Below, piece after piece: positions 12,801 through 17,649 of a stretch of DNA of 64,000 bases. Both the position numbers and the translations under genes were made by a program. The notes below the pieces were generated by a model. It was not told where the DNA came from. It did no database searches and worked only from the letters and a program-made list of their open reading frames with translations. Within the stretch, counting starts at the first letter, position 1, and each line of letters begins with the position of its first letter. Source of the DNA: the human T2T-CHM13v2.0 reference genome, Homo sapiens. The stretch lies in assembly GCF_009914755.1 (NCBI RefSeq), contig NC_060936.1; one strand, 5' to 3'.

Positions 12801-14069
12801 CTCTTTCCATACCTAGTGAAATAATGTTCTGCATCTGGCATCTGAGAGGCAGCAGCCACTTGGCTTGCTCAACTGTAATGTTCAAATTACAATTTGCCAC
12901 TAAACATTCCCATTGGTATAAAAATGGCCCCACACAGCAAAGGCGAGCTGATTATAGGCATTAGCATCTAATGTTCCCTGAGAGGACTCCGCCTAAGTAT
13001 GCTGCTTTACATAGCTATAGTCATAATTTCCCTCTGGTTCTTCAAAATCAGAGTTAGATTTCTGAATATGGAAAATATAAGAGTAATGCTCAAATGCATT
13101 CCACACATGGAATACTCTGAAAATTCTATGTTAATCATCTCTGAAGACATTACACAAGCATAAGCAAATGGCACTGTAATTTAATATGCTCCACTTCTAT
13201 TTTTTCCTCAGCCTATTCTTTCCACACACTTGTATATAATTCCCTATTTTTGTTATTTTGTATTTAATTGCCTCTGCTAAAGCAAACATATTGCAGAATT
13301 GCCAATTATCTTATAAATATGTATTGCTTTCATTGAGAGGGTTTTCGTTTTTCTGGAATTCCAACAAATTTCAATCAATCATTTATACTACAAAAATCTA
13401 GTAGTTTAGAAATCTTTTAAAAATTTGCCTGAGTTTTAGGTTTCTTATAACGTTTGGTCTAATGTTGGCTGAAGGCATGTCTCTATAATATCAAAACACA
13501 TGGTAATTCAATCATTTCAGTAAAATTTACTGTCAATTTGTTAAAGGGGAAAAATCAAACTGATAGCTTTGTACAGGGTAAACAACTGATTTATTAATTA
13601 AATCTTTTACTTTTCTCCAGTTATTTATTTGTTGTATAAACGTAGGCACAGTTGTAGAGAACACAGACATCTGCTTGCAGTAAAAAACATTAAAAAAGGG
13701 AAATTCTCACTATCTTAATGCAGTAAAATGTGCGGAATCACATACTAACAGTAATCATTTGGTGGGAGGAATGGAGCTTATACTCCAAAGGTTTATTATT
13801 TTTCAACTGAACTTGACTTCCACATAAAAGCCAGCACCAAGCCCTAAATGTGAAATACAGTGGATGGCAGTTGTGTATAAATCTGATTAAAAACGTTATT
13901 TGAGAATCCTACTTCCACCAGCTGATTTAAGAAGATGAGCTTGGTCATTTGATAAAAAAGAACTAGATTTCTAAACTCTCTCTCTCTATATATACCTACA
14001 TATATATATGTATATATGCAGAGGACCTAATTGTTACAAAGGTAATGCCTAAAGGATCACTTGGTAGTG

Positions 14070-14389
14070 TTTTTTGTTTTGTTTTGTTTTTTGTTTTTTG
14101 TTTTTTTTGAGACGGAGGCTCGCTGTGTCGCCCAGGCTGGAGTGCATTGGCGCGACCTCGGCTCACTGCAAGCTCCGCCTCCCGGGTTCACGCCATTCTC
14201 CTGCCTCAGCCTTCTGAGTAACTGGGACTACAGGCGCCCACCACCACGCCCAGCTAATTGTATTTTTTGTAGAGACGGGGTTTCACCATGTTAGCCATGA
14301 TGGTCTCGATCTCCTGACGTCGTGATCCACCTTCCTCGGACTCCCAAAGTGCTGGGATTACAGGCGTGAGTCACCCACCACGCCCAGTC
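14070..14389 (-). mobile_element. AluY-like
   Basis: gcaagctccgcctcccgggttcacgccattctc diagnostic; TSD-like gtagtg. Confidence 0.93.
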
Positions 14390-14659
14390 AGTAGTGCTTT
14401 TCTTGAAAGGAGCTCAGCCCAAGGTAGATTTAGTGGTGATTTTCAAAACATCCATAAAAGATTATTATTCCAGAGCTATTAGTTTGGCATAACTCTTGTT
14501 CCCCTTTTGTAATTACGATCTGGTATGCAATTGCTAAGGAGATGTTAAAAATGTCTATATTATTTACATTGGACATTATTCTTCAGAGGTGGTAAGAGCT
14601 ACCTGCAAGTCATACAATATGTTACCAAAATACTCAGTTGAACTAAATATTTTTGTTTT

Positions 14660-14797
14660 TCAAATGTTTTTCATATTGCTAGAGATGGGATTTCGCCATG
14701 TTGGCCAGGCTTGTCTAGAATTCCTGGCCTCAAGTTATCTGCCCACCTCAGCCTCCCAAAGTGCTGGGATTATAGGTGTGAGCCATTGCGCCCCGCC
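14660..14797 (-). mobile_element. Alu left-monomer fragment
   Basis: agagatgggatttcgccatgttggccagg...gagccattgcgcc. Confidence 0.87.
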
Positions 14798-14889
14798 ATA
14801 ATTGAATTAAATATTTTAAACTGAAGATTCAGTTAACATTGACTCGCTTGGCTCCAAGACCTCCAACAACAGATAGGATGAAATTGCAT

Positions 14890-15059
14890 TGTTGCCCAGG
14901 CTGAAGTACATGGTGCAGTCATCGCTCACTGGAGCCTCGACTTCTTGAGCTCAAGCAATCCTCCCACCTCAACCTCCTGAGTAGGTAGGACCAGAGGCAC
15001 ATGCCACTGTGCCCAGATAATTTTTTTATTTTTATAAAGGCAGAATCTTACTGTGTTGC
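14890..15059 (-). mobile_element. AluJ internal fragment, truncated at both ends
   Basis: Starts tgttgcccaggctg with no poly-T tail; stops at ctgtgttgc where the inverted-repeat arm begins. Confidence 0.88.
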
Positions 15060-16135
15060 ATGAAGCCTAAACTTCATGGCTAGCTCTTCAGTCCACAAAT
15101 CACTGAGTAACAGATGTGTATCATGATCAGCAACTAATCACGTCACATCTCTCAACATTTGTCAGTGAATGGTCACTGAGCATCTGTTACTCGGTTCACA
15201 CATAGACAGCAAAGCATGCAGTTGTATTGCCTCCTTGTCTCCCAGGGATAAACCTTTGTGACATTTTACAAAAATGAATAATTGAGAGAGGGAATTGGCC
15301 AAAAAAAGTGAAAGTGCAGCAAAGAAGCAAAAATGATAACACTGAAAGTGAATTTTGACTTTCATGTAAATGGAGTTATAGAAGAAATAGCTGATTGTTG
15401 GAAGGGTGACAATGTTGCCTTTGGAAAGGCTCAATCTGTGGACAGAGGAACTTAACTAAAGGGAACTTATCGGCATAAATGAGGAAATAGTTGTGATGAA
15501 ATGGATGAAAATGTCCCAGAGGAAGACACCAGAATTTCTATGTCTCAACTAATCGTCAAGCACTTTTCTAAGTTTTGGATTAGCTTCTAACATTTTATCC
15601 TTTACACTGCCAATGTCATGAAATATCTGTGAGAAATCCTTTAATGGCAAGATTTTTGCTGGTGTCTTCCTCTGGGACATTTTCATCCATTTCATCACAA
15701 CTATTTCCTCATTTATGCCGATAAGTTCCCTTTAGTTAAGTTCCTCTGTCCACAGATTGAGCCTTTCCAAAGGCAACATTGTCACCCTTCCAACAATCAG
15801 CTATTTCTTCTATAACTCCATTTACATGAAAGTCAAAATTCACTTTCAGTGTTATCATTTTTGCTTCTTTGCTGCACTTTCACTTTTTTTGGCCAATTCC
15901 CTCTCTCAATTATTCATTTTTGTAAAATGTCACAAAGGTTTATCCCTGGGAGACAAGGAGGCAATACAACTGCATGCTTTGCTGTCTATGTGTGAACCGA
16001 GTAACAGATGCTCAGTGACCATTCACTGACAAATGTTGAGAGATGTGACGTGATTAGTTGCTGATCATGATACACATCTGTTACTCAGTGATTTGTGGAC
16101 TGAAGAGCTAGCCATGAAGTTTAGGCTTCATGCAA
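15056..16135. repeat. Perfect long inverted repeat: 477-bp arms (15056-15532; 15659-16135), 126-bp spacer
   Basis: Position i pairs with 31191-i across both arms; identical 90-aa ORFs on opposite strands (15162..15434 -, 15757..16029 +); first mismatches at 15055/16136 and 15533/15658. Confidence 0.99.
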
Positions 16136-16260
16136 TTACTCACAGCTAATATACCATGGTAGCTAAACTTGAACCATGTTGTTGGAACTGGTGTTACTTA
16201 ACTCAACCATGGTAACTGAAATTTGTGCATTTTAGAACCATGAGAAACAAGAACTGTCTG
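15533..16260 (-). mobile_element. TcMar-Tigger DNA transposon fossil (Tigger6-like); one terminus at ~16260, other end missing
   Basis: Terminus reads cagacagttcttg on the minus strand; decayed ERELAKKSESAAKKQK..ITLKV Tigger-like N-terminus; continuous through spacer, right arm and 125 bp beyond. Confidence 0.75.
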
Positions 16261-16765
16261 CATTTGATTTCTTAAAACAATTCTTGGGGAAAAGATTAAA
16301 ACTGCCATAATCAGTGTCACAATAAGAGAACCTGAAGCATTTACTTTTGGGTACCAACAAAGCATGTGTCTCAATTTTAAATCATTAATAAAAAATGTAA
16401 TTTTATCCTTAATTTTTTCCAGTGTAGAAGTTTTTTTTTTTCTTTTTTTAAAGCTAATCTTATTGCCACTCACTCCTTGGAATTAATAAATGTAACTATT
16501 GATCAAATTCACAATTGAAATATTTTGTATTGACATGCAAAATAATTTCCTAGGATCACACTTGAGTAATCAACTATTAGTTTCTTTTAGAATTTATCTT
16601 ACATTAGCGTAAACACACACACAATCTCTTACTCATCCATGCATACTTAATGATGTATATAAAACAATGACATTGAACCCATAGAATGTACAAAGATCAG
16701 AATACAGATGTAGAAATAGTGCTTACATATGGAGTTTACACATTGAATTATAACATACATACACA

Positions 16766-17345
16766 AAGTCAGTTCTGCTATAATGCTTGTTTGAGAATAT
16801 GCATTTGTCCTATTAGGGAACAATTTGAACACAATGCAAATTTTGCATTTGCGTATGCACAATTTCACACAAGAGAAACACTAGGTATGTGCAGAAAACT
16901 GCACCCAGATGAACGAAGCTGCACAGGGCTACACAAAAGGCCCACACTTCAGACATCTACCAGCTACGTTATTTCACCATGCATATCCTGAGCCACATTT
17001 GTCCACACCCATTGTGACAACTGTCTGTTAAGTTTTAGATAACCCTTTACAATTTCATAACAAGTAAAAGCTATAATCCTTCAGATGCTTTCTTCCACAA
17101 GCAAATTTCAGGTCCCTTTCAAAGTAAAATCACATATTTATTATAGTATTTGTGCATTTTTTAACCATTTAAGATGGAAAAAACTGTGTTACTGCTTTTT
17201 TAAATTGGTTTCTATCTTTTTTTATGTGTCAGTGACAATGGTACGCCCTAACCCCATAAGGCCTGTGGTTTTTATTGTGCAATTTTGCATAGTGCACTGA
17301 TTTTTTTTTTGAAATGTACACATCGTGTTGCATAGATTTATGTAG
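16766..17345. mobile_element. TcMar-Tigger non-autonomous fossil (Tigger8-like)
   Basis: agtcagttctgctataatgc start; ctaaccccataaggcctgtggtttttattgtgcaattttgcatag near the other end. Confidence 0.65.
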
Positions 17346-17649
17346 ACTATAAAAAGAATGTATATGACTTTTTCTCTCCAAAGATTAAAATTTACTAGTA
17401 TAAAATTATTTAAAGTCTGAGTGGTGGAGCCCATGGTGTGACATTGCTTTTCAGGGCTTTAAACATCTTCTATGTGAGAAAGCCAAGTTTAAAAAATAGT
17501 CAAAAGGATGATTACCCAATCGAACCTCTAAAAACAAACCCATGACCGTGAAGGCTGTTTGCCTATTCTATCAGTAAATTCATAGTTGATGAGGAGAATT
17601 TTCAGCTTCTGCAGAGAGGCTCTATCTGTCTAGCTTTGAATTGTCTAAA

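What the first reader, a model, noticed from the sequence alone, without database searches (positions are those of the whole stretch)
15040..15560. Junctions indicate template-switch replacement (deletion plus inverted duplication)
Seen: the AluJ at 14890 stops mid-element at ctgtgTTGC (Alu would continue ccaggctgg) and the arm begins TTGCatgaagcc, giving a 4-bp TTGC microhomology at 15056-15059. At the inner junction (15532/15533) the sequence returns to the native Tigger strand, and the rest of that Tigger (its other terminus) is absent. Inference: a replication fork switched at TTGC to the opposite strand about 1.08 kb downstream, copied 477 bp backwards, then switched back, deleting the Alu left-arm remainder and the far end of the Tigger (FoSTeS/MMBIR type). 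This predicts an ancestral allele with the remainder of the Alu left arm and a two-ended Tigger in place of the left arm.
Basis: partly seen in the sequence, partly recalled or inferred. Interest (0 to 1): 0.7.

Follow-up and report, generated by a model that had tools for sequence, protein, structure and literature searches.

The report
Young inverted copy replacing deleted DNA
In non-coding DNA on human chromosome 12, a 477-base piece of an old transposon is repeated backwards, letter for letter, exactly where two old repeats break off; it likely arose recently when a copying or repair error replaced about 450 bases, a known kind of mutation with no sign of function.

Summary
Arms 15056-15532 and 15659-16135 are 477 nt and 100% complementary, with a 126-nt spacer. 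The right arm, spacer and flank form one continuous old DNA-transposon copy (positions 1-738 of a 1080-nt consensus from 28 paralogs); its last 342 nt are absent from the window, while 28 of 28 paralogs continue. The Alu stops at 15059 where 22 of 23 window Alus continue, sharing TTGC with the donor. So the left arm is the copy and likely replaced at least ~435 nt. Best reading: one young template-switch or fold-back event (type 1-4-3-2 or its mirror), close to length-neutral. New here: the Alu also lacks its tail end, and the 28 nt in its place (14862-14889) are tiled by 7-10-nt pieces of the donor strand from near the two switch points. That suggests a third junction and serial switching (post hoc, ~55%). 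No ancestral allele, ape genome or second human genome was available, so age, deleted sequence and polymorphism are untested. No catalogue entry was found in the supplements I could read. Known class; interest modest.

The parts
15056..15532 (+). Left arm: exact inverted copy of 15659-16135 (consensus positions ~129-606); 473 nt gained beyond the 4-nt overlap
15659..16135 (-). Right arm: the original, continuous with transposon sequence on both sides
   Evidence: consensus 1-738 aligns to 16260-15535, 82% by BLAST
15533..15658 (-). 126-nt single-copy spacer in native orientation; 15533-15534 are 2 unexplained nt
15535..16260 (-). Old non-coding DNA transposon copy (Tigger-type, name recalled): first 738 of 1080 consensus nt; last 342 nt and second terminal repeat missing
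14890..15059 (-). 170-nt Alu piece cut at both ends; no near-identical copy elsewhere among 40 scored of 3933 candidates (next best 77-89%)
15056..15059 (+). TTGC microhomology shared by the Alu and the donor strand at 16135-16132
14862..14889 (+). 28-nt stretch in place of the Alu 3' end and tail, tiled by 7-10-nt exact pieces of the donor minus strand starting at 16186, 15630 (or 16082), 15688 (or 15696) and 16137; candidate templated patchwork at a third junction

Best explanation
A 477-nt piece of an old transposon is duplicated in inverted orientation where an Alu and that transposon both break off, and it likely arose in one recent template-switching event during replication or break repair that would have replaced at least ~435 nt. 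Shown: the arms, which one is the original, both truncations and the TTGC overlap. Inferred steps: synthesis left its template at the Alu's TTGC, copied 473 nt of the opposite strand from 16135 to 15659, and rejoined at 15533-15535. The mirror reading is equally valid: a 3' end near 15533 folded back over a 126-nt loop, copied itself for 477 nt and rejoined the Alu through TTGC. Minimum loss is 342 nt of transposon plus ~93 nt of Alu against 473-475 nt gained, so net length change is at most about +40 nt. Probably (about 55%) the same event included short abortive switches that left the 28-nt patch at 14862-14889 and removed the Alu tail. The product is most likely a neutral scar.
For: Arms identical up to both junctions with no diverged shoulders. 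Both arm ends coincide with truncations that are rare in controls: 22 of 23 Alus and 28 of 28 paralogs continue. 4-bp overlap, chance 0.004-0.016. 0 of 477 differences gives a 95% upper bound of 0.63% arm divergence; P(0)=0.003 at a recalled human-chimp divergence of 1.24%. Patch: two colinear exact matches (10+8 nt) reached by 0 of 3366 control 30-mers, 0 of 5000 shuffles and 0 of 2484 other targets; full 7-mer tiling reached by 20 of 11324 controls and 0 of 1222 other targets; the stretch scores 7 as an Alu end against 16-31 for 23 of 23 other Alus. The outcome matches published type 1-4-3-2 (PMC5453318).
Against: No ancestral allele was seen; the deletion size rests on both repeats having been full length. 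No microhomology is visible at the inner junction. The age bound fails if arms are homogenised. Patch statistics were chosen after the matches were seen; the family consensus scores almost as well as this copy (17 vs 18; 27 vs 28, and 1 of 28 paralogs also reaches 28); 10 other tiled runs of 28 nt or more occur on the + strand of the window; 14871-14889 can also be aligned loosely to an Alu end.
Confidence: 0.68

Rival explanations
1. Same young event, but copied as arm plus spacer in one 603-nt tract (type 1-3-4-2, deletion-inversion-duplication); recombination between the identical arms later flipped the spacer back.
For: It gives the same junction sequences (inference). Spacer inversion between repeats is described in PMC5453318. 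The densest mismatch window of the copy (9 of 20 at 15546-15565) lies next to the inner junction.
Against: Needs a second event. The spacer as a whole is not clearly more diverged (24 of 124 vs 76 of 477), and 2 of 28 paralogs have as many mismatches (8 of 20) in those columns, a third being gapped there.
Confidence: 0.1
2. The rearrangement is old (shared with other apes or monkeys) and the arms stay identical through arm-to-arm conversion or hairpin correction.
For: Template switching can homogenise inverted-repeat arms (abstract start of PMC8604942, search listing). The strand can fold into a very stable hairpin (-623 kcal/mol predicted).
Against: Identity is perfect to the last base at both ends, where incomplete conversion would be expected to leave mismatches (inference). 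Replication stalling in eukaryotic cells was not frequent at a 52-bp spacer in work reviewed in PMC7999016; this spacer is 126 nt.
Confidence: 0.1
3. A second old copy of the same family lay inverted on the left, interrupted by the Alu; the left arm overwrote it, and 14823-14889 is its relic.
For: 14798-14889 aligns to consensus ~36-100 with a score reached by 5 of 4014 controls, better than to the native copy (23 of 4014); order along the strand would be colinear.
Against: A profile from 28 paralogs finds no hit there; the pairwise alignment is gapped and weak; a genome search with 14798-14889 returns only itself. It does not explain why the Alu ends at the arm.
Confidence: 0.05
4. Assembly artefact, or a change private to the CHM13 cell line.
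For: No catalogue entry found at the expected coordinates in the supplements searched; only this assembly was available.
Against: A fold-back read chimera would not return to the forward strand with a deletion and a microhomology (inference). A near length-neutral change, or a fixed one, would also be absent from such tables.
Confidence: 0.05

Closest known systems
Four-point template-switch mutation, type 1-4-3-2 / mirror 3-2-1-4 (PMC5453318; bioRxiv 10.1101/2021.11.26.470150; PMC7954356)
   Same: Creates an inverted repeat around a non-inverted spacer while replacing local sequence; this type is 31% of high-confidence human-chimp events.
   Different: 473 nt copied here; the longest in the haplotype survey was 318 bp, and the mean after repeat-masked loci were removed 11.56 bp. 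One search was limited to +/-100 nt and 50 deleted bases, so it could not have found this.
Small polymorphic inverted duplications and inversion-plus-deletion SVs (PMC4617611; PMC12350158)
   Same: Inverted duplications were 54% of 229 verified inversion sites, mostly under 1 kb and within 5 kb of the source; 277 events, median 284 bp, in 1,019 genomes.
   Different: Polymorphism here is untested; the copy replaces about as much as it adds.
Complex germline MMBIR templated insertions (PMC8421209)
   Same: Several consecutive switches on nearby templates with microhomology; 33 of 103 and 26 of 99 germline events were complex.
   Different: That search looked within about 100 bp; here the templates would lie 0.7-1.3 kb away in present coordinates, and pieces are only 7-10 nt.
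Fold-back inverted duplications (PMC3907307)
   Same: Inverted copy, single-copy spacer as fold-back loop, adjacent deletion, short junction insertions.
   Different: Those are megabase terminal events with 766-70,466 bp spacers and a dicentric stage; this is interstitial and about 1 kb.

Membership tests
Template-switch replacement (1-4-3-2 / FoSTeS / MMBIR type) | New segment is an exact reverse-complement copy of nearby sequence | tested here: met
   477 of 477
Template-switch replacement (1-4-3-2 / FoSTeS / MMBIR type) | Microhomology at the outer junction | tested here: met
   TTGC; chance 0.004-0.016
Template-switch replacement (1-4-3-2 / FoSTeS / MMBIR type) | Microhomology or short insertion at the inner junction | tested here: inconclusive
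   none visible; 2 unexplained nt; ancestral bases unknown
Template-switch replacement (1-4-3-2 / FoSTeS / MMBIR type) | Sequence lost between leaving and return points | tested here: met
   indirect: both repeats truncated at the arm ends, missing parts absent from the window
Template-switch replacement (1-4-3-2 / FoSTeS / MMBIR type) | Ancestral allele without the copy exists | not testable with these tools
   no relatives held for this genome
Complex multi-template MMBIR insertion | Further short templated pieces from nearby DNA | tested here: inconclusive
   14862-14889 beats most controls but the statistics are post hoc and the consensus fits nearly as well
Polymorphic inverted-duplication SV | Segregates among humans | not testable with these tools
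   no entry in readable supplements, several cut or incomplete
Tigger-type non-autonomous DNA transposon (donor) | Terminal inverted repeats and TA flanks in the family | tested here: met
   consensus of 28 paralogs has ~24-nt terminal repeats and TA at both ends; the window copy keeps one end, flanked by CA; subfamily name not tested
Transposon's own terminal inverted repeats / hairpin MITE | Arms are the element's two ends | tested here: not met
   arms are internal positions ~129-606; 0 of 28 paralog loci are palindromic
Known structured RNA family | Rfam match | tested here: not met
   0 matches at gathering score in 13500-17500

The most novel reading that the evidence does not exclude
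A human-lineage or still-segregating germline event in which one broken 3' end made four or more 7-10-nt probing switches onto the two ends of the segment it then copied in full, deleted twice, and left a perfect 477-bp inverted repeat with almost no net length change, so that length-based SV catalogues and short-range template-switch scans both miss it. It would be a readable record of serial switching and one example of an under-counted size class (0.3-1 kb replacements).
Probability: 0.4. Interest if true: 0.5.

Novelty: new member of a known kind. Interest (0 to 1): 0.3.

Why it matters
As a locus it matters little: the supplied annotation shows no gene or RefSeq functional element over it, and the nearest annotated transcript end in the window is about 24 kb away. 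As an example it is useful: old repeats on both sides let one read a deletion without an outgroup, the copied tract is longer than in the template-switch surveys I read, and a perfect young inverted repeat allows spacer flipping and arm correction to be measured in pangenome data.

Tried and rejected
Alu piece as an insertion copied from elsewhere: no near-identical source among 40 scored of 3933 candidates. Missing transposon end moved nearby: no match in the window. Arms as the element's own terminal repeats: rejected. Known RNA family: none. Old second copy on the left: weak, kept as a minor rival. Mismatch cluster at 15546-15565 as a further switch (9-nt match to the minus strand at 16060): within the paralog range, not claimed. 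Catalogue look-ups with CHM13 prefixes 92208-92210 and GRCh38/GRCh37 prefixes estimated from recalled BTG1 coordinates (not lifted over): no relevant row seen in PMC12350158 (one file cut; 4 of 9 hits not viewed; prefix 92209 had 0), PMC10150506, PMC4617611 (one file only), PMC12350169 (one file cut, one unreadable; 1 of 4 hits not viewed), PMC13629690, PMC6467913; the PMC12058530 supplement was unreadable. Three papers I wanted were not held under the ids I recalled. A locus search (chr12, BTG1, LINC02391, 12q21.33) listed nothing on this structure among 15 of 138 papers. Earlier scan findings were not available.

Full report
Observation. The window holds a perfect inverted repeat, arms 15056-15532 and 15659-16135 (477 nt, identical, 126-nt spacer), CHM13 chr12:92,209,056-92,210,135. 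Among 410 inverted pairs of 60 nt or more (25 longest shown) the next is 266 nt at 86%. No Rfam family matches 13500-17500. The supplied annotation shows no gene or functional element here.

The donor. A search of the window's genome with 15533-16260 gave 46 matches (40 of 422 candidates scored). Of 30 loci fetched, 2 were this site; the other 28 gave a 1080-nt consensus with ~24-nt terminal inverted repeats and TA flanks, a Tigger-type DNA transposon (name recalled, not tested). The window copy covers consensus 1-738 on the minus strand from 16260 to 15535 at 82% identity, running through the right arm and spacer, so the right arm is the original. Positions 739-1080 have no credible match in the window by BLAST or profile. 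All 28 paralogs, chosen on the 5' part only, extend to position 877 or beyond and 18 of 28 reach the last 25 nt. None of the 28 loci holds a perfect 30-mer inverted match within 3 kb, so the palindrome is not a family trait.

Outer junction. The Alu piece 14890-15059 stops where 22 of 23 other window Alus (hits aligned over more than 105 nt) continue; the remainder is 91-93 nt in the 8 of 23 where my pattern found the end. TTGC fits both sides; 8 of 23 other Alus have TTGC there. Chance of such an overlap is 0.016 by formula or 0.004 one-sided. Inner junction: native sequence resumes at 15535, two bases (15533-15534) are unexplained and no microhomology can be seen without the ancestral bases. 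Minimum loss is thus about 435 nt against 473-475 gained, if both repeats were full length: a nearly length-neutral replacement (inference).

Age. Zero differences in 477 nt bound arm divergence at 0.63% (95%); at a recalled human-chimp divergence of 1.24% P(0) is 0.003, at 0.1% it is 0.62. This points to the human lineage or a living polymorphism unless arms are homogenised. Identity reaches the last base at both ends, which fits a single recent copy better.

A likely third junction. The Alu piece also lacks its 3' end and tail: the 24 nt before 14890 score 7 against the Alu end (13% of random 24-mers reach this) versus 16-31 for 23 of 23 other Alus, and T content in the tail position is 0.12 versus 0.53-1.0. 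The 28 nt at 14862-14889 are covered by exact 7-10-nt pieces of the donor minus strand starting at 16186, 15630 (or 16082), 15688 (or 15696) and 16137, that is within 51 nt of the two arm ends. For: 0 of 3366 control 30-mers and 0 of 5000 shuffles reach the 10+8 colinear match; 20 of 11324 reach the tiling, 0 of 3040 when sources must lie within 55 nt of the arm ends; with the 30-mer fixed, 0 of 2484 and 0 of 1222 other targets reach it; this copy scores 18 against 5-17 for 28 paralogs. Against: the statistics were chosen after seeing the matches; the consensus scores 17 and 27 against 18 and 28, and 1 of 28 paralogs also tiles 28; 10 other tiled runs of 28 nt or more exist on the + strand; 14798-14889 aligns to consensus ~36-100 with a score reached by 5 of 4014 controls, better than to this copy, though a profile search finds nothing there. 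I put the patch at about 55%. The Alu piece has no near-identical source elsewhere among the scored candidates.

Mechanism. The layout is type 1-4-3-2 of the four-point model, which cannot be told from its mirror 3-2-1-4 (PMC5453318, passages). A 1-3-4-2 event with later spacer flip gives the same letters. The strand can fold into a long hairpin (-623 kcal/mol), but a review reports no frequent stalling in eukaryotic cells at a 52-bp spacer (PMC7999016, passages), so strong fragility is not expected (inference).

Comparison. Small inverted duplications are common: 54% of 229 verified inversion sites (PMC4617611, passages); 277 events of median 284 bp (PMC12350158, section 18); 1,247 complex SVs against CHM13 (PMC12350169, passages). 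Multi-template germline insertions are described (PMC8421209, passages and first part of section 10). I saw no entry for this site in supplements of six papers (of PMC10150506, PMC13629690 and PMC6467913 I saw only the listing or reference and the supplement search); some files were cut or unreadable, five hits were not viewed, and non-CHM13 coordinates were estimated from memory. Nine full-text searches listed nothing on this locus. This is weak evidence of absence.

Verdict. The decisive test, the ancestral allele, could not be run: no relatives are held for this genome. Interest 0.3.

Noticed in passing
window 14890-15059: The Alu piece begins and ends with TGTTGC, at what look like equivalent positions of the Alu's two arms, so it spans about one monomer period; TTGCAT occurs on both sides of it (14884-14889 and 15056-15061).
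   Followed up: partly
window 14647-14797: A separate single-arm Alu (FLAM-like, label recalled) with a near-identical ~15-nt flanking repeat on both sides; not the missing arm of the cut Alu, as its position and sequence differ.
   Followed up: partly
window 15546-15565: Densest mismatch window of the transposon copy (9 of 20), with a 9-nt match to the minus strand at 16060; within the paralog range.
   Followed up: yes
window 15531-15539: The inner junction forms a tiny AGAA-T-TTCT inverted repeat that includes the two unexplained bases; may be chance.
   Followed up: no
window 16765-17345: A second old interspersed repeat of another family, 43 matches at about 65-83% identity in the genome; not identified.
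   Followed up: partly
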